Shown here: positions 652 to 7,540 of the stretch, piece after piece
Numbering within the stretch: the first letter of the stretch is position 1
Layout of the letters: each line of letters begins with the position of its first letter
Virus record (IMG/VR): IMGVR_UViG_3300029923_000016
From: an uncultured virus (IMG/VR IMGVR_UViG_3300029923_000016)
Lineage: Duplodnaviria; Heunggongvirae; Uroviricota; Caudoviricetes
DNA: 20,000 bases
Reading direction: 5' to 3' (one strand)
Program-made: the position numbers and the translations under genes
The notes under the pieces: model-generated
Told to the model about the DNA's origin: nothing
Databases searched by the model: none
Seen by the model: only the letters and a program-made list of their open reading frames with translations

Positions 652-679
652 TTGCGTATTAAATTAGGGGGTGTATAAT
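652..679 (+). promoter_or_regulatory. sigma70-like promoter flanked by an 11-bp inverted repeat
   Basis: TTGCGT (652-657), 16-bp spacer, TATAAT (674-679). Flanked by TTCATATATAA (639-649) and TTATATATGAA (681-691). Confidence 0.6.
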
Positions 680-724
680 ATTATATATGAAATTTATAGA
701 GGGGGTTAATTTATGTGAGTCAAA

Positions 725-804
725 GCTATGCAATGCTTAGCCGTGCACTGCGATGCTGAGCGATGCCGTGCCTAGCTATGCTCTGCGGAGCAATGCAAAG
801 CCTA
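725..804 (+). repeat. GCNNW pentamer tract 1 (16 units)
   Basis: gctat gcaat gctta gccgt gcact gcgat gctga gcgat gccgt gccta gctat gctct gcgga gcaat gcaaa gccta. Confidence 0.95.
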
Positions 805-814
805 ATTAATTAGG

Positions 815-859
815 GTACTGAGTCTTCTCACGAGGGCTTAGTGCGGTAATTAATTTACC
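815..859 (+). ncRNA. putative structured RNA element, copy 1 (13-bp stem plus GGTA/TACC hairpin)
   Basis: gtactgagtcttc-tcac-gagggcttagtgc pairs fully when G-U is allowed, then ggta-attaatt-tacc. Homologous to 926-966 with compensatory changes. Confidence 0.6.
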
Positions 860-862
860 AAA

Positions 863-907
863 GCGCTGCTGTGCCTTGCTATGCGAAGCCATGCGGAGCA
901 ATGCAAA
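863..907 (+). repeat. GCNNW pentamer tract 2 (9 units)
   Basis: gcgct gctgt gcctt gctat gcgaa gccat gcgga gcaat gcaaa. Shares the 17-mer tgcggagcaatgcaaag with tract 1. Confidence 0.95.
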
Positions 908-925
908 GGCTATTTTAATAATAGC

Positions 926-966
926 GTACTAGCCATTCCAACGAGTGGTTAGTGCGGTATTGTACC
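926..966 (+). ncRNA. putative structured RNA element, copy 2
   Basis: gtactagccattc-caac-gagtggttagtgc stem, then ggta-ttg-tacc. Confidence 0.6.
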
Positions 967-969
967 ACT

Positions 970-1024
970 GCGATGCAGTGCGATGCCTTGCAGTGCCAAG
1001 CTTAGCATAGCACAGCGAAGCAAA
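970..1024 (+). repeat. GCNNW pentamer tract 3 (11 units)
   Basis: gcgat gcagt gcgat gcctt gcagt gccaa gctta gcata gcaca gcgaa gcaaa. Confidence 0.95.
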
Positions 1025-1025
1025 G

Positions 1026-1057
1026 GCCGTGCCTTTTAGGCACGGCACCCTATTTTT
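1026..1057 (+). terminator. GC-rich hairpin, possible weak intrinsic terminator
   Basis: gccgtgcct-ttt-aggcacggc (1026-1046) followed by accctattttt. The T-tract is offset from the stem. Confidence 0.45.
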
Positions 1058-2456: not shown

Positions 2457-2669
2457 ATGCAAATATCAACCAAGTCAGTGATATCACTGGCAGAGGAAGC
2501 GGGGCTCCCGCCCTCTTTAATCGAGCGCCACACCGATGCTTTAACGCATTTTGCACTCCGCCTGCGCATGGCAGAACGGCGCGTTTGTCGTAATAAGCTG
2601 CGCAACTGGACCATAGACAAGTCCCTGAGCAAGCCGCCGCTACTTGAGGCGCTGACGGAGCATGATTGA
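2457..2669 (+). CDS. hypothetical protein (70 aa)
   Basis: ATG at 2457 after AGAGGA, directly following the HNH stop. The track's start at 2211 is probably overextended. Confidence 0.65.
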   Translation: MQISTKSVISLAEEAGLPPSLIERHTDALTHFALRLRMAERRVCRNKLRNWTIDKSLSKPPLLEALTEHD

Positions 2670-5307
2670 GATAATACATGATAAGGTGTTATCCGTCACC
2701 ACGGATAGCCCTGACGACATTACAACAGTAATAGACAAGTACAAGATAGACAATGGCAAAGTGCTCATCCCCTTTAATCTGGGGAATGTTCACATATTAA
2801 AAAACATGGGCTTTACGGTACCGTCGCCCATTGAGACTCGGTATGGGTGGCCTGGACTCCATAAACCCTTTTCGCATCAGCGCAGTATCGCTTCGTTTTT
2901 GACCTTGAATAGGCGGGCGTATAACTTTGGCGAATTAGGAATTGGCAAAACGAAAAGCGCTATCTGGGCTGCCGACTACCTACTAAGTATAGGTGCTATA
3001 CGGCGTGTATTGGTTATCGCGCCGCTTAGCATCCTCGATTCTGCATGGAAGCAGGAGATATTCAGGACAGTGATGCATCGGTCTGTTGATGTGGCGCATG
3101 GCACAAAGGAGAAACGCGAGGCAATAATCAATAGTAAAGCTGAGTTTATACTTATCAATTATGATGGCGTCGAGATTGTGATTGACGCTTTGGACCGAGG
3201 TAACTTTGATTTAATCATAATTGATGAGTGCTTTGTAGCTGGGACACGAGTTCTTACGCCTATTGGTTTTAGAGCTATTGAACAAATCGTAGAAGGTGAT
3301 ATAATAGAGACAAGTTGGGGGCCAAGACCCGTAACCAAAACGTTTCATAAACAATCATCCAACATAGTTGAAGTCGAGTTTGAAGATGGTATCAAAATTA
3401 CCTGCACAGAAGAGCACCCTTTCTCAACCCGAAATGGTTGGGTCGCCGCAAAAGACCTCCTTGGTGAAATATGTACTACATCAAGAGAATTGTCACACCT
3501 GCGGGACGCCGTTCGAGCAGAAGGTGTTTGCCAACCAGAAGGCATCTCACTATTGTTCTCGCGCATGTTGGAAAGAGTCGTACTATGTAGATTTGGTGTG
3601 CGGGCATTGCGGAAAAAAGTATCGAAAGGTAAAGAGTTACTTAAGAACCAACCCTGCAAAATATTGCAGCACAAAATGTACGGCGCAAGCGCGCTCTGCA
3701 AAAGTTATGGGGGAGACAGTTATGTGTCCGGTCTGCGGAGGGGAGCATTTTGTACCCCACAGAGTGTTGCGGTATCGTCCAGCATTAACCTGTTCCCGTT
3801 CCTGCGCCAGAAAGTTAGTGTGGCAAACAGAGCGAAAGCGGATGATGGATGGCGTACAGAAAGCAGCGGAGAAGCATCGGGGCCAACCCTCACCTCTCAG
3901 GGGGATTCCCCATACAGAAGAGCGCAAGCAACAACAGCGTGCGCTGGCAGTAGAGTTGGGGAGTCGGGAACCGTTCATGCGAGTGCGGGGCGGCAATGGT
4001 ACGGGTATGTCAAGAGTAGAGTTACTAATGCGCTCAATACTCCCAGAAAGTTTCCAATACAACTATATTGTAAAGACATTACAAAAGCGTGGAAGCGGGT
4101 ATCCCTATCACTACAAGCTGGATTTCGCAGACCCTTTACAGATGATTTGTTTAGAAGTAGACGGGTACAGCCACAATACAATACAGCGTCAAGAACAAGA
4201 CAGGAAGAAAGAGGCGTTGCTTCAGGACTTAGGGTGGTCAGTGTTACGCGTATCCAACAAGGATGTCCTCGCGATGTTTGGAATCTGGAAGTAGCGGGCC
4301 CTCATGATTATATCGTTGAGGATGTGCTAGTCCATAACTGCAACTACATAAAGAACGTCCAAACCCGCAAGCACAAGTTCATTAACAAGTTGATTAAAGC
4401 GGATACCTGGTGCTGGCTAATGACCGCTACACCGGCTGCGCAGAGCCCTTGTGATGCCTATGGTCTGGCGCGTATGATAGACCCTAAATCAGTGCCTCGG
4501 TCTTATGGTGCATTTAGGGAGATGGTGCAGTATAAAATCAATATGTTTATGTGGATAAATAAACCCGATGCAGAGCGAACAGTACACAGAGTTTTACAAC
4601 CCGCAATTAGATTTACTAAATCAGAATGTTTGGATTTACCTGAGCTATTATATGAGACGCGTGAAGTACCTCTGACCGCACAGCAAAACAAGTATTACAA
4701 ACTTCTAAAAAAGGAAATGATGATTCTCGCTGCGGGTACAACGGTCACTGCGGCGAACGCAGCGGTTCTGATTGGAAAGTTGTTGCAAATTTCAGCGGGC
4801 AACTGTTATGATGAACGTGGGGATATTATTGAGTTTGATATCTCCAACCGATTCAGAGAGCTGTGTGATATCATCCGTGAGACGCGTAACAAAACGATAG
4901 TGTTTGTGCAGTTTAGGAACTCCATCGAGCGAATCATGCGGATGCTGCAGGATGAAGGCATTACTTGCGAGGCCATTCACGGGAAAATCCCCATGAATAA
5001 GCGGGATGTCATCTTCTCTGATTTCCAAAACAAACCCGACCCGCAAGTGTTAATCATCCAGCCGCAAGCTGCGGCACACGGTGTGACATTGACAAAAGCG
5101 GATACGACAATATGGTTCGGGGTACCCATGTCCTTTGAAATTTACCAACAAGGGAATGGGCGTACGCACCGCGCCGGACAACGCAACCAATGTACTGTTG
5201 TCCATTTGATAGGTAGTGATGTTGAGAAGAAAGTATTGAACGCGTTGGACAAAAAGAATATGTCCGCAACGACTCTATTGGCATTATTTAAAGAGGTAAT
5301 AAAATGA
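2662..5307 (+). CDS. SNF2-family (SF2) helicase precursor containing an intein (881 aa; about 511 aa after splicing)
   Basis: Walker A GELGIGKT, motif Ia VLVIAPLS, Walker B LIIIDE|C, motif III MTATP, HelicC motifs HGVTLT and QGNGRTHRAGQ. Confidence 0.93.
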   Translation: MIEIIHDKVLSVTTDSPDDITTVIDKYKIDNGKVLIPFNLGNVHILKNMGFTVPSPIETRYGWPGLHKPFSHQRSIASFLTLNRRAYNFGELGIGKTKSAIWAADYLLSIGAIRRVLVIAPLSILDSAWKQEIFRTVMHRSVDVAHGTKEKREAIINSKAEFILINYDGVEIVIDALDRGNFDLIIIDECFVAGTRVLTPIGFRAIEQIVEGDIIETSWGPRPVTKTFHKQSSNIVEVEFEDGIKITCTEEHPFSTRNGWVAAKDLLGEICTTSRELSHLRDAVRAEGVCQPEGISLLFSRMLERVVLCRFGVRALRKKVSKGKELLKNQPCKILQHKMYGASALCKSYGGDSYVSGLRRGAFCTPQSVAVSSSINLFPFLRQKVSVANRAKADDGWRTESSGEASGPTLTSQGDSPYRRAQATTACAGSRVGESGTVHASAGRQWYGYVKSRVTNALNTPRKFPIQLYCKDITKAWKRVSLSLQAGFRRPFTDDLFRSRRVQPQYNTASRTRQEERGVASGLRVVSVTRIQQGCPRDVWNLEVAGPHDYIVEDVLVHNCNYIKNVQTRKHKFINKLIKADTWCWLMTATPAAQSPCDAYGLARMIDPKSVPRSYGAFREMVQYKINMFMWINKPDAERTVHRVLQPAIRFTKSECLDLPELLYETREVPLTAQQNKYYKLLKKEMMILAAGTTVTAANAAVLIGKLLQISAGNCYDERGDIIEFDISNRFRELCDIIRETRNKTIVFVQFRNSIERIMRMLQDEGITCEAIHGKIPMNKRDVIFSDFQNKPDPQVLIIQPQAAAHGVTLTKADTTIWFGVPMSFEIYQQGNGRTHRAGQRNQCTVVHLIGSDVEKKVLNALDKKNMSATTLLALFKEVIK
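3229..4338 (+). mobile_element. class 1 intein (370 aa) inserted in helicase Walker B
   Basis: Block A CFVAGTRVLTP, block B ITCTEEHPF (TxxH), block F VWNLEV..HDYIV, block G VLVHN followed by +1 Cys. Excision restores IIIDE-CNYIKN. Confidence 0.95.
3368..4294 (+). CDS. nested out-of-frame putative homing endonuclease (Zn-ribbon repeats, NUMOD3-like segment, Vsr/DUF559-like nuclease); true start uncertain
   Basis: Three CxxCG...CSxxC repeats, GIPHTEERK, and C-terminal E...YKLDFA...CLEVDGYSH...DRKKEALL..LGWSVLRV. Candidate starts are TTG 3368, ATG 3386, ATG 3434 and GTG 3464. Confidence 0.88.
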   Translation: MKSSLKMVSKLPAQKSTLSQPEMVGSPQKTSLVKYVLHQENCHTCGTPFEQKVFANQKASHYCSRACWKESYYVDLVCGHCGKKYRKVKSYLRTNPAKYCSTKCTAQARSAKVMGETVMCPVCGGEHFVPHRVLRYRPALTCSRSCARKLVWQTERKRMMDGVQKAAEKHRGQPSPLRGIPHTEERKQQQRALAVELGSREPFMRVRGGNGTGMSRVELLMRSILPESFQYNYIVKTLQKRGSGYPYHYKLDFADPLQMICLEVDGYSHNTIQRQEQDRKKEALLQDLGWSVLRVSNKDVLAMFGIWK

Positions 5308-5654: not shown

Positions 5655-6047
5655 ATGCCCGATGTAGAAAAGATAGTATCCGTCTATCTGAAAATCAGAA
5701 ACAAGAAAGCGGAAATCACCAAGGCTTATGAAGCGCAGATAGCAGAGCTTGACGCTAAACAAGATATGCTCCAAAGCGCATTGCTTGATTTGTGTAAAGA
5801 ACTGGGCGTTGAATCAGTTCGTACAGAATCCGGCACTGCCTTTAGGACTATCAAAGAACGAGTCTTCGTATCGGATTGGGCAGCTGTAGAGCAATTCATC
5901 TACGACAATGACGCGTTTGATTTGGTCGAGAAAAGGCTTGCCCAGAACGCGGCTAAGTCATGGATAAAAGACTTCCCAGACAAACCTATCCCGTCTGTGG
6001 TTGTAGACAGAAAGTTTACTATAACGGTTAGGAGAGGTAAGCCATGA
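5655..6047 (+). CDS. conserved phage protein with N-terminal coiled coil (possibly Gam/Gp157-like)
   Basis: Coiled-coil N-terminus followed by SVRTxxGT...VxDW...FI...DL.EKR, a pattern I associate with phage replication modules; RBS AGGA. Confidence 0.7.
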   Translation: MPDVEKIVSVYLKIRNKKAEITKAYEAQIAELDAKQDMLQSALLDLCKELGVESVRTESGTAFRTIKERVFVSDWAAVEQFIYDNDAFDLVEKRLAQNAAKSWIKDFPDKPIPSVVVDRKFTITVRRGKP

Positions 6048-6439: not shown

Positions 6440-7417
6440 ATGAGCAACTTAAGCATATTTAAAAACGGCGGCGGCGTCCCTGCCCATCTTCAAAAAAGAG
6501 AGCTGTCTGCCGCCACCAAAGCCTTGATGGGTGGTTTTGAAAACCGCCGTATCTCTATCCGGGGCGGGGTCTTCCGCAAGGTCATCAATGGTCAGGAGGT
6601 GGGTTCCATCCCCGAACGGGCACTGAACGTGGTCATTGTTGGCGTCGCCGAGCATACTTCCCGGCAGTATTACAAAGCCGCCTATCAGGAGAATGCCGAC
6701 CCGGTGGCACCGGACTGCTACAGTGCTGACGGCATCACGCCGATGGCAACAGCGACGGCGATTCAAGCAGCCACCTGCGCCGCCTGTCCACAGAATATCG
6801 CAGGCTCAGGCCAAGGTGATTCCAAAGCCTGCCGCTTCCAACGCCGCATTGCGGTGGTCTTGGAGAAAAACCTGGAAGATGGTGAGGTTTATGAAATGAC
6901 GCTGGCAGCGACCAGTCTGTTTGGTGGCAAGGGCAAGCCTGACCCCGACAAGATGGGCATGCGCCAGTACGCCAACTTTTTGGGTGGTTACGGCGTCAAC
7001 ATCGACGCCGTGGTCACTGAATTGCGCTTTGATTTGGACGCCGCCACCCCGAAATTACTGTTCGCGGCATTAAGACCGTTAGAGACGGATGAGCTGTTGC
7101 TGGTTGAGGAATATTCCAAATTGCCGGAGACTATCCAGGCTATCACATACAGCTTTGGTGGGGTGGTGGTGAAACCGGCGGCTGCCGAATTGCCCTTTAT
7201 CCAGCCTCGCCCAGCTCCTGCCCCCGCAGCTGCGTCAGTGCCTGAGCCAGAGCCCGTCGTTCCGGCACGCACAAGGGTCACTCGAAATCGCCCCGCCGCA
7301 GCCGCTGCGCCTGCCCCTGAAGTCATTCCGGAGCCGATACGCCGTGAAAGCCACGCCGCGCCGCAACCCGCCTCGACAAATATTGATGAGCTGCTATCGG
7401 AGTGGGGCGACGAGTGA
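6440..7417 (+). CDS. putative single-stranded DNA-binding/annealing protein
   Basis: RISIRGGVF N-terminus, Cys cluster (PDC...CAAC...KAC), Pro/Ala-rich linker and acidic aromatic tail DELLSEWGDE; located just before the primase. Confidence 0.65.
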   Translation: MSNLSIFKNGGGVPAHLQKRELSAATKALMGGFENRRISIRGGVFRKVINGQEVGSIPERALNVVIVGVAEHTSRQYYKAAYQENADPVAPDCYSADGITPMATATAIQAATCAACPQNIAGSGQGDSKACRFQRRIAVVLEKNLEDGEVYEMTLAATSLFGGKGKPDPDKMGMRQYANFLGGYGVNIDAVVTELRFDLDAATPKLLFAALRPLETDELLLVEEYSKLPETIQAITYSFGGVVVKPAAAELPFIQPRPAPAPAAASVPEPEPVVPARTRVTRNRPAAAAAPAPEVIPEPIRRESHAAPQPASTNIDELLSEWGDE

Positions 7418-7423
7418 TATAAT
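7415..7423 (+). promoter_or_regulatory. possible extended -10 promoter
   Basis: TGaTATAAT overlapping the SSB stop codon, about 12 nt before pentamer tract 4; no good -35. Confidence 0.5.
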
Positions 7424-7435
7424 TTTTCTTCCATA

Positions 7436-7490
7436 GCGATGCGATGCCTAGCCTAGCTTAGCGTTGCGATGCGATGCTATGCAGTGCAAA
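7436..7490 (+). repeat. GCNNW pentamer tract 4 (11 units)
   Basis: gcgat gcgat gccta gccta gctta gcgtt gcgat gcgat gctat gcagt gcaaa, followed by the palindrome gccactttaaagtggc (7492-7507). Confidence 0.95.
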
Positions 7491-7513
7491 GGCCACTTTA
7501 AAGTGGCAAGAAC

Positions 7514-7540
7514 GAGCGGCTTAGGCCGCTCCTTTTTCCT
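7514..7540 (+). terminator. intrinsic terminator-like hairpin
   Basis: gagcggc-ttag-gccgctc followed by ctttttcct. Confidence 0.7.

What the first reader, a model, noticed from the sequence alone, without database searches (positions are those of the whole stretch)
720..1057. Non-coding array of period-5 GCNNW tracts alternating with conserved RNA hairpins
Seen: three tracts (16, 9 and 11 units) have GC exactly every 5 nt and A/T at every fifth position, while the two middle bases vary freely, so this is not a slippage microsatellite. Each tract is preceded by YCANW and ends in GCAAAG(G/C)C followed by a stem-loop. The array lies between a sigma70 promoter (652-679) and a terminator-like hairpin and RBS of the exonuclease gene, and has no credible ORF. 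Established analogy: TRAP binds 11 trinucleotide repeats separated by 2-nt spacers (period 5) to control attenuation. Inference: WGC triplets with free 2-nt spacers could be a landing track for an oligomeric RNA- or ssDNA-binding protein, a decoy/sponge RNA against a host defence or regulator, or a multi-site primase/origin element. I cannot assign it to a named family.
Basis: partly seen in the sequence, partly recalled or inferred. Interest (0 to 1): 0.85.

Follow-up and report, generated by a model that had tools for sequence, protein, structure and literature searches.

The report
Orphan VIPR guide RNA genes in phage
The period-5 tracts are genes for VIPR-type guide RNAs, a recently described phage RNA-guided DNA-silencing system, here with an unusual repeat motif and in a phage that seems to lack the partner protein.

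Summary
In detail: three + strand (GCNNW)n tracts at 725-801, 863-904 and 970-1021, and three more elsewhere in the same phage. They match the anatomy of vrRNAs, the guide RNAs of VIPR systems described in 2026 preprints: 8-15 pentanucleotide repeats with a fixed trinucleotide and two free bases, then a conserved structured tail. The trinucleotide is WGC, not the canonical GGY. In other viral contigs the same tract type lies beside a homologue of the SUSP1 Vipr protein: 41 of 53 loci that are not this phage (PDB 36pp, E 7.6e-38). The window's inter-unit hairpins align with those Vipr-linked arrays, with 12 of 17 pairs compensatory. I closed the phage map at about 71.7 kb and found no Vipr by sequence. 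They are therefore probably "solo" vrRNAs that borrow Vipr in trans, a class reported in October 2026 for enterobacterial phages. One candidate target appeared: units 4-14 of the first guide match 22 of 22 bases, wobble-aligned, in a provirus portal gene. Known kind, new member. Transcription and protein binding are not shown.

The parts
652..679 (+). Promoter-like site for the three-unit array: -35 TTGCGT (3 of 6), 16-nt spacer, -10 TATAAT at 674-679.
   Evidence: Sequence. The consensus scan did not call it, so this is an inference.
720..801 (+). vrRNA-1 guide region: cap unit TCAAA, then 15 GCNNW units ending in GCAAAGC.
   Evidence: Units 4-14 match a provirus portal gene 22 of 22 under the 1-nt-skip rule.
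797..860 (+). Tail and inter-unit element A. AAAG, then hairpin 1 at 801-814, hairpin 2 at 817-842 with loop UUCUCACGAG, and hairpin 3 at 845-859.
   Evidence: Alignment A2 and pair counts: 99.6% of cells paired, 12 of 17 pairs compensatory.
858..908 (+). vrRNA-2 guide region: cap CCAAA, then 8 GCNNW units and GCAAAG.
905..967 (+). Tail and inter-unit element B. AAAGG, then hairpin 1 at 909-925, hairpin 2 at 928-953 with loop UUCCAACGAG, and hairpin 3 at 956-966.
   Evidence: Its flanks are nearly identical to those of Vipr-linked arrays such as L004 and L013.
965..1025 (+). vrRNA-3 guide region: cap CCACT, then 10 GCNNW units and GCAAAG.
1026..1055 (+). Terminal tail hairpin (9 bp) with a T-rich run. 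It is terminator-like and ends the array just before the RBS and the ATG at 1069 of the PD-(D/E)XK exonuclease gene.
   Evidence: fold z-score -4.55.
7415..7537 (+). Free-standing vrRNA-5. Extended -10 TGaTATAAT at 7415-7423, cap CCATA, 10 units at 7436-7487, AAAGG, hairpin 7492-7507, and terminator-like hairpin 7514-7531 with a T run.
   Evidence: z-score -3.01.

Best explanation
The tracts are genes for VIPR-type guide RNAs (vrRNAs). Each unit would be a transcript of about 90-115 nt with three parts: a YCNNW cap, 8-15 pentanucleotide repeats, and a conserved tail (AAAGG plus a hairpin). In each repeat the triplet WGC is held by one protomer of a Vipr (minimal RAMP) filament, while the two free bases are presented for pairing. 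In the three-unit array two further conserved hairpins separate the units. By the published VIPR code the NN bases pair with double-stranded DNA while skipping every third target base, and this silences transcription of a rival mobile element. This phage has no recognisable vipr gene in its closed map of about 71.7 kb. Its six vrRNAs are therefore most likely solo vrRNAs that borrow a WGC-reading Vipr in trans from a co-infecting phage or a resident prophage. Shown here: the repeat anatomy, the RNA-structure covariation, the linkage of this repeat type to Vipr homologues elsewhere, and the absence of a Vipr detectable by sequence. Inferred: transcription, Vipr loading, the trans supply, and the target.
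For: Pattern statistics: 27 matches against 0 in 200 shuffles. There are six units in the phage, all on one strand. Literature: vrRNAs are 9-16 YNNGG repeats plus an invariant structured tail, about 100 nt, found singly or in arrays. Alternative consensus forms NNNGG, YNNNG and NNNNG are reported (bioRxiv 10.64898/2026.04.26.720920, results, discussion and methods read). Linkage: of 68 loci with diverse tracts among the 101 returned, 41 hold a roughly 190-aa protein of one family, 15 are this phage, and 12 are other loci, several of them short. That family's profile hits PDB 36pp 'SUSP1 Vipr protein' at E 7.6e-38. One member is 39% identical to the phiSUSP1 Vipr over its full length, and the gene downstream of it is 30% identical to SUSP1's vap1-position gene. 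Tail: the window's two inter-unit elements align with 15 elements from Vipr-linked arrays. There, 99.6% of cells pair, 12 of 17 pairs are compensatory, and 0 of 500 shuffles reach the observed covariation score. Slid controls pair 27-50% of cells. Frequent G-U pairs fix the strand. SUSP1's own locus has a hairpin with the same UUCUAAGAG-type loop ahead of its vrRNAs. Specificity switch: 4 of 4 GGY-type Viprs keep H17 and D/E177, the two residues that read G1 in the cryo-EM paper. Of the WGC-linked Viprs, 9 of 11 lack H17 and 10 of 11 lack D/E177. R138 and R179 are invariant. Target lead: units 5-14 of vrRNA-1 hit two homologous viral contigs. The match extends to 22 of 22 bases over units 4-14, inside a Phage_portal gene (PF04860, E 5.8e-82). 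The skipped bases fall on wobble positions. In that provirus skip-1 scores 24 of 30, above all 300 shuffles (maximum 21), while skip-0 and skip-2 score 18 and 17. Solo vrRNAs in VIPR-null phages are documented (bioRxiv 10.64898/2026.10.15.759431, sections 7, 8, 9 and 24 read).
Against: No Vipr was found in the phage. These searches were negative: the profile against G000, G001 and G002; hmmsearch --max over all ORFs of 60 aa or more (best E 0.48); an enlarged 139-sequence profile (best E 0.048, a 7-bit local match in a 130-aa protein with no G-loop); and hhalign (best probability 1.7%, run on G001 only). In SUSP1, changing GGY to AGY abolishes silencing (legend of fig. S12), so WGC needs a different Vipr, which is unidentified for this phage. 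In this phage W is T in 39 of 60 units, whereas Vipr-linked arrays have A in 1086 of 1200. Only one of six guides has a candidate target, its first three units do not match, and 6 of 7 target scans found nothing. My chance estimate for that hit, about 0.01, rests on a guessed database size. The provirus is 65% G+C and the phage 51%, which makes a shared host less obvious. Transcription is not shown: one metatranscriptome holds only low-depth 151-nt contigs, one of which covers 995-1145.
Confidence: 0.8

Rival explanations
1. It is a complete VIPR system after all. The phage encodes its own effector, either a Vipr too divergent for sequence profiles or a non-RAMP protein that reads WGC/NN repeats, so the vrRNAs are not orphans.
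For: RAMPs share little sequence similarity, and the founding paper needed structure searches plus 8 PSI-BLAST rounds. Many phage proteins of 130-300 aa have no family hit. Six vrRNA genes at four loci is more than the 1-2 solo vrRNAs reported per VIPR-null enterobacterial phage. T predominates at W here, unlike in Vipr-linked arrays.
Against: The profile spans members down to about 18% identity and two sister clusters, yet nothing in the closed genome scores above noise. No ORF combines the RP...W motif with a C-terminal G-loop in the right arrangement. No unknown gene sits beside any of the four loci in the way vipr does in 41 other loci.
Confidence: 0.12
2. They are anti-VIPR decoys. The RNAs only soak up or misdirect a rival's Vipr and have no meaningful targets of their own.
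For: Satellite solo vrRNAs that divert SUSP1 Vipr to host REP repeats are shown experimentally. Five of the six guides have no candidate target. Units such as GCGAT recur: GA fills 13 of the 60 NN positions.
Against: In the published case simple competition was not enough and real targeting of decoy sites was needed. vrRNA-1 has a wobble-aligned 22 of 22 match in a portal gene.
Confidence: 0.15
3. They are decaying remnants of a VIPR locus whose vipr gene was lost, now neutral.
For: No Vipr is present, and a vipr-vap1 deletion is documented in SUSP1 relatives.
Against: All 60 units keep GC and W. All six end in GCAAAG plus a stable hairpin. The free-standing units keep promoter-like sites: TTGACC-17-TATTAT and TGnTATAAT or TGnTATTAT. 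They lie at four separate loci, not at one deletion scar.
Confidence: 0.04
4. It is a TRAP-like attenuator or another cis-regulatory leader that controls the downstream exonuclease gene, or a DNA-level origin or primase array.
For: The array lies between a -10 element and a terminator-like hairpin directly upstream of a gene. The period-5 triplet spacing resembles TRAP sites (recalled, not tested by any search).
Against: The same module also stands between unrelated genes, and once on the strand opposite to its neighbours. No TRAP family appeared in the Pfam scans of 47 proteins. Strand-specific G-U pairing and covariation argue for RNA, not double-stranded DNA. The motif type is linked to Vipr genes elsewhere.
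Confidence: 0.03

Closest known systems
VIPR vrRNAs of Escherichia phage SUSP1 and the P. fulva prophage (type II VIPR; bioRxiv 10.64898/2026.04.26.720920 and 10.64898/2026.04.26.720927; PDB 36pp)
   Same: Both have pentanucleotide repeats with a fixed trinucleotide and two hypervariable bases, in similar numbers (8-15 here, 9-16 there), followed by a conserved structured 3' tail. Both occur singly and in arrays in intergenic regions on the coding strand. Both have a hairpin with a UUCUAAGAG-type loop next to the units. The same tract type sits beside Vipr homologues that are 39% identical to SUSP1 Vipr.
   Different: The triplet is WGC, not GGY. In SUSP1 the AGY substitution is inactive. The Viprs linked to WGC tracts have lost the G1-reading residues H17 and D177. 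The tail is AAAGG plus a simple hairpin, with no evident pseudoknot. No vipr or vap1 gene is in this phage.
Solo (orphan) vrRNAs of F5 satellites and VIPR-null SUSP1-family phages (bioRxiv 10.64898/2026.10.15.759431)
   Same: These are vrRNA genes with no vipr on the same genome and with tails like those of VIPR-positive relatives. They are expected to borrow Vipr in trans.
   Different: Those are GGY-type, 1-2 per phage, at the scar of a vipr-vap1 deletion, in enterobacterial phages. Here there are six WGC-type units at four loci in an unrelated environmental phage: its DNA polymerase is at most about 35% identical to that of any cultured phage. Published targets are vipr genes, rival vrRNAs, satellites and host REP sites. 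Here the only lead is a provirus portal gene.
Non-canonical VIPR arrays found by a genomic language model (bioRxiv 10.64898/2026.10.21.760802; passages read)
   Same: These are period-5 arrays with other fixed triplets next to Vipr-like folds. GAC, CAC, WGT and TGH are the examples given.
   Different: WGC and AGC do not occur in that text. Its figure S10 and supplements were not visible to me and may include this motif. Those arrays are Vipr-linked, not solo.
TRAP (trp RNA-binding attenuation protein) binding sites
   Same: Both have triplets repeated with 2-nt spacers that are read one per subunit of a protein oligomer (recalled knowledge).
   Different: The triplet, the protein family and the outcome all differ: DNA targeting rather than attenuation. 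No TRAP gene was found.

Membership tests
VIPR vrRNA | Tandem pentanucleotide repeats with a fixed trinucleotide alternating with hypervariable NN, about 9-16 units | tested here: met
   There are 8-15 units plus a cap. GC and W are kept in 60 of 60 units, and NN entropy is 1.86-1.94 bits. The triplet is WGC, not GGY. This fits the paper's 'YNNNG' alternative.
VIPR vrRNA | Invariant, structured 3' tail after the repeats | tested here: met
   All six units end in GCAAAG plus a hairpin. Covariation was measured in alignment A2 and fold z-scores run from -2.8 to -4.6.
VIPR vrRNA | Adjacent vipr (RAMP) gene | tested here: not met
   None was found in the closed map of about 71.7 kb. The feature is met for the same tract type in 41 of 53 loci from other viruses.
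VIPR vrRNA | Expressed as a small RNA of about 100 nt that co-purifies with Vipr | tested here: inconclusive
   Promoter-like and terminator-like sites flank the units. One metatranscriptome holds only 151-nt contigs at low depth. Binding cannot be tested with these tools.
VIPR vrRNA | NN bases match a DNA target under the 1-nt-skip rule, usually wobble-aligned in a gene of a rival element | tested here: inconclusive
   vrRNA-1 matches 22 of 22 bases over units 4-14 (24 of 30 in all), wobble-aligned, in a provirus portal gene. In that provirus 0 of 300 shuffles reach the score. The other five guides have no hit.
Solo vrRNA (VIPR-null carrier) | No Vipr hit on the same contig or within 20 kb (definition) | tested here: met
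   The whole genome was searched. Two records overlap over 16,192 bp at 100% identity and a third record bridges the ends with 15 bp between them.
Solo vrRNA (VIPR-null carrier) | Tail shared with the vrRNAs of VIPR-positive elements, so that Vipr can be borrowed | tested here: met
   The AAAGG-hairpin tail and the inter-unit element align with those of Vipr-linked arrays. Actual loading is not testable here.
TRAP-binding attenuator | (G/U)AG triplets, a TRAP protein, and overlapping antiterminator and terminator structures | tested here: not met
   The triplet is WGC. No TRAP family appeared among 47 proteins scanned. Free-standing copies are not leaders of any gene.
Rfam families, including hammerhead and other ribozymes | Match to a curated covariance model | tested here: not met
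   There were 0 matches at gathering score in the whole window. Only chance-level hits appeared at E up to 10 in 550-1150. No tRNA or tmRNA was found.

The most novel reading that the evidence does not exclude
An environmental phage with no Vipr of its own carries six WGC-type guide RNAs at four loci. It would use them as 'guns for hire', loading a resident prophage's or rival's WGC-reading Vipr to silence that community's proviruses, for example through the portal gene. Bolder still, the phage may encode a second, non-RAMP reader of the pentanucleotide code. Either would extend solo-vrRNA warfare, and the noncontiguous code with a changed triplet, well beyond enterobacterial SUSP1-like phages.
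Probability: 0.3. Interest if true: 0.7.

Novelty: new member of a known kind. Interest (0 to 1): 0.5.

Why it matters
VIPR is a newly described RNA-guided DNA-recognition system, proposed as an ancestor of CRISPR RAMPs and as a compact programmable tool. This locus bears on four points.

- The code tolerates a different fixed triplet, WGC, and that change tracks with loss of the two residues that read G1. This gives a concrete handle for engineering orthogonal Vipr and vrRNA pairs.
- Solo vrRNAs are not confined to SUSP1-like enterobacterial phages.
- A multi-locus set of six guides can persist without the effector gene.
- It supplies a testable guide and target pair: vrRNA-1 against an HK97-type portal gene.

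It also shows that period-5 tracts seen in raw sequence are a reliable flag for this system.

Tried and rejected
- **Rfam and tRNA.** Gathering and permissive Rfam scans and ARAGORN found nothing. A weak PsrR1 hit on the minus strand is only the anti-RBS plus the hairpin.
- **Cultured phages.** megablast of 6 kb found no match.
- **Target scans with 1-nt-skip patterns that found nothing.** vrRNA-1 with 14 units and vrRNA-5, viral contigs. vrRNA-1 units 2-12 and vrRNA-3, metagenomes. vrRNA-3 and vrRNA-1 units 1-10, viral contigs.
- **Self-targeting.** Nothing in the phage's own genome rose above shuffled controls for skip 0, 1 or 2.
- **Local guide searches.** 81 guides against 1.25 Mb of fetched loci, both strands counted, showed no skip-1 enrichment. 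The six guides against 419 kb of VIPR-positive loci gave only vrRNA-3 at 17 of 20, reached by 1 of 100 shuffles. That match is wobble-aligned in an unannotated 356-aa ORF of L005, and I treat it as chance until shown otherwise.
- **Prokaryote genomes.** The scan for the tract plus AAAGG returned 14 loci, none with a Vipr, and most look like chance.
- **Relatives of the phage.** The search for related loci with the exonuclease returned only the same phage.
- **ESM Atlas.** Two unknown early proteins gave nothing usable.
- **RNA runs.** One wetland metatranscriptome holds short low-depth contigs and three peat runs hold none. This says nothing about expression.
- **Population variation.** Copies of the phage from several records are at least 99.9% identical, with no differences in the arrays.
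- **RcapNL portal.** The homologous site scores only 18 of 30.
- **Not run.** I did not run structure prediction or complex prediction. There were too many candidates for two jobs, and no partner to test.

Full report
**1. Observation**

Window 720-1057 holds three + strand tracts with GC every five bases and A/T in the fifth position: 725-801, 863-904 and 970-1021. A five-unit version of the pattern matches 27 times in the window, always on the + strand. It matched in none of 200 dinucleotide-preserving shuffles.

The window's contig (26.6 kb) has a fifth tract upstream of the window, and the full phage has a sixth.

Over the 60 units of the phage the two middle bases carry 1.94 and 1.86 bits of entropy. 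W is T in 39 units and A in 21. Every tract begins with a YCNNW cap unit and ends in GCAAAG followed by a hairpin.

No + strand ORF of 30 aa or more covers the array. Rfam and ARAGORN find nothing.

**2. Genomic setting**

The window comes from a tailed phage. The array sits in its replication module, between the DNA polymerase and a PD-(D/E)XK exonuclease. An intein-bearing SNF2 helicase, an SSB-like protein and a DUF927 primase-helicase lie nearby.

Other public records hold the same phage at 99.9% identity or more. One 46.5-kb record contains the whole contig. A 41.4-kb record overlaps that record by 16,192 identical bases. A third record bridges the two free ends with only 15 bases between them. 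This gives a closed map of about 71.7 kb with terminase, portal, head, tail and lysis genes.

All six tracts are on one strand. The sixth lies between tail genes that run the other way.

The free-standing units have promoter-like sites: TTGACC-17-TATTAT, or a TGn-extended -10 read from the sequence. They also have terminator-like hairpins.

**3. Identification**

A scan of IMG/VR for six units plus GCAAAG returned 101 loci. After dropping plain microsatellites, 68 had diverse units.

Clustering their ORFs showed one protein family of about 190 aa, in two sister clusters, in 41 of the 68 loci. Of the rest, 15 loci are this phage and 12 are others, several of them only 636 bases long or at contig ends.

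Several results identify that family as Vipr.

- Its members end in a glycine-rich loop.
- Its profile hits PDB 36pp, 'SUSP1 Vipr protein', at E 7.6e-38.
- One member is 39% identical to the phiSUSP1 protein over its whole length.
- The gene downstream of that member is 30% identical to the SUSP1 gene in the vap1 position.
- The family has 1,396 relatives at E of 0.001 or better in the large protein collection. All 120 listed are unnamed or called hypothetical, and none has a Pfam family.

A literature search on 'pentanucleotide repeat' led to the founding VIPR preprint, bioRxiv 10.64898/2026.04.26.720920. I read its results, discussion, the first part of its methods and some figure legends. 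It describes the following.

- Vipr is a minimal RAMP of about 20 kDa.
- vrRNAs consist of 9-16 YNNGG repeats (fixed GGY, hypervariable NN) followed by an invariant structured tail.
- vrRNAs are about 100 nt long and occur singly or in arrays in the intergenic regions around vipr.
- The NN bases pair with double-stranded DNA while every third target base is skipped.

The window's tracts have this anatomy, but with the triplet WGC.

**4. Tail and inter-unit structure**

In the array each guide is followed by AAAG(G) and three hairpins. The same three-hairpin element separates the units of Vipr-linked arrays in other contigs.

I aligned 17 distinct elements, two from the window and 15 from those arrays. 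The results were as follows.

| Measure | Result |
|---|---|
| Cells paired | 99.6% |
| Pairs with compensatory changes | 12 of 17 |
| Shuffles reaching the observed covariation score | 0 of 500 |
| Cells paired when partners are slid by 1-3 columns | 27-50% |

G-U pairs are frequent, so the structure belongs to the + strand RNA.

The second hairpin carries a conserved loop (UUCUAAGAG, UUCUCACGAG or UUCCAACGAG). A hairpin with the same loop type precedes the vrRNAs in the SUSP1 locus itself. What this element does is unknown. A processing signal is my guess. It is not a hammerhead by Rfam.

**5. The WGC variant**

Cultured-phage VIPR loci (SUSP1, LESphi2, Medea1 and MakoManhole) all use GG(C/T)NN repeats. 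In SUSP1, changing GGY to AGY abolishes silencing (legend of fig. S12).

The cryo-EM preprint, bioRxiv 10.64898/2026.04.26.720927 (outline and section 5 read), assigns the contacts. G1 is read by H17 and D177, G2 by R138 and W178, and Y3 sits in a pocket that includes R179.

In my alignment:

- all 4 GGY-type proteins keep H17 and an acidic residue at 177;
- 9 of 11 WGC-linked proteins have S, A, C, N or D at position 17;
- 10 of 11 WGC-linked proteins have G, A, N or S at position 177;
- R138, P139, W144 and R179 are invariant.

The G1 pocket has changed while the G2 and Y3 contacts remain, which is what a switch from G to W at the first position predicts. This is a correlation across 15 sequences and was not corrected for phylogeny.

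Non-canonical triplets next to Vipr-like folds have been reported (GAC, CAC, WGT, TGH) in bioRxiv 10.64898/2026.10.21.760802 (passages read). 'WGC' and 'AGC' do not occur in that text. Its figures and supplements, and fig. S17 of the founding paper, were not visible to me and may show this motif.

**6. No Vipr in this phage**

The Vipr profile finds nothing in any of the searches below.

| Search | Best result |
|---|---|
| Window's contig (G000) | no match |
| The two longer records (G001, G002) | no match |
| All ORFs of 60 aa or more in the closed map, filters off | E 0.48 |
| Enlarged profile of 139 sequences | E 0.048 |
| hhalign against 87 ORFs of 100-400 aa in the 46.5-kb record | probability 1.7% |

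The E 0.048 hit is a 7-bit local match in the 130-aa protein at 5655-6047, which has no G-loop. Motif searches for a G-loop and for RP...W were also negative. A diverged relative of the phage (L055) also carries tracts but has no Vipr in its 19 kb. Because RAMPs diverge fast, a hidden effector is not excluded; I put it at about 12%.

The best reading is that these are solo vrRNAs. That class was described in October 2026 (bioRxiv 10.64898/2026.10.15.759431; sections 7, 8, 9 and 24 read). Satellites and 346-388 VIPR-null enterobacterial phages carry vrRNAs without vipr and borrow Vipr in trans. Their predicted targets are vipr genes, rival vrRNAs, satellites or host repeats.

**7. Targets**

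Seven collection scans with 1-nt-skip patterns were run, and six found nothing.

The seventh used units 5-14 of vrRNA-1 (20 specified bases). It hit two viral contigs that are 82% identical homologues of each other. The details are as follows.

- The site lies in an HK97-type portal gene (PF04860, E 5.8e-82), at the codons for T-D-W-E-R-L-Y-S-G-N.
- With unit 4 included, 22 of 22 specified bases match. The whole guide scores 24 of 30.
- Every skipped base falls on a wobble position.
- The three differences between the two contigs inside the footprint are all at wobble positions.
- One contig is a 94%-complete provirus with no Vipr and no tracts.
- Within that provirus skip-1 scores 24, above all 300 shuffled guides (maximum 21). 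Skip-0 and skip-2 give 18 and 17. The other five guides match nothing.
- The portal is 64% identical to that of Rhodobacter phage RcapNL, where the homologous site scores only 18 of 30.

My rough chance estimate is about 0.01. It allows for the number of scans, the extra matching unit and the wobble phase, but the database size is a guess. I hold this as a credible lead, not a finding. The provirus is 65% G+C and the phage 51%, and units 1-3 do not match.

**8. Verdict**

The element can now be named: VIPR-type guide RNA genes with a WGC/NN repeat, apparently orphaned from their effector.

Both the system and the solo form are already described in 2026 preprints, so this is a new member of a known kind. 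It has three points of interest: the changed triplet with matching changes in the protein pocket, six guides at four loci in an unrelated environmental phage, and one candidate target in a portal gene.

Transcription, Vipr loading and silencing remain untested. One metatranscriptome holds only short low-depth contigs.

Noticed in passing
window 2662-5307: The SNF2-type helicase gene carries an intein. Hint and Intein_splicing domains fall at about residues 190-560, between the helicase motifs.
   Followed up: no
L001:3162-3359 (220 bp upstream of the tract outside the window): A 65-aa Cys-rich protein is 32% identical to a 66-aa protein about 1.4 kb downstream of vipr-vap in the L013/L004 phage clade. 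It is the only gene the two phage groups share in those loci, so it may be a VIPR-associated small protein.
   Followed up: partly
window 6440-7417: A 325-aa protein (phrog_27714, function unknown) has a Pro/Ala-rich linker and an acidic C-terminal tip (…DELLSEWGDE), as phage single-strand DNA-binding proteins do. It ends 19 bp before the free-standing vrRNA unit.
   Followed up: no
window 817-842 and 928-953; L106 (phiSUSP1) about 2289-2323: A hairpin with a conserved 9-10-nt loop (UUCUAAGAG type) accompanies vrRNA units in both GGY-type (SUSP1) and WGC-type arrays. Its role is not stated in the parts of the papers I read.
   Followed up: partly
L005:1408-1436 (-), in ORF 1164-2234: vrRNA-3 matches 17 of 20 bases, wobble-aligned, in an unannotated 356-aa ORF of a 195-kb viral contig that itself carries many WGC-type tracts. 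One of 100 shuffles does as well, so it may be chance.
   Followed up: partly
closed phage map (G001 + G002): The genome carries several HNH or homing endonuclease genes, an ICEA-like nuclease next to a DNA methyltransferase, and two anti-repressor-like genes.
   Followed up: no
L024, L066, L010, L009: Some viral contigs carry very long WGC-type tracts of 24-35 units, or many tracts joined by AGG. These are far beyond the 9-16 units described for vrRNAs and may be staggered or overlapping arrays.
   Followed up: no
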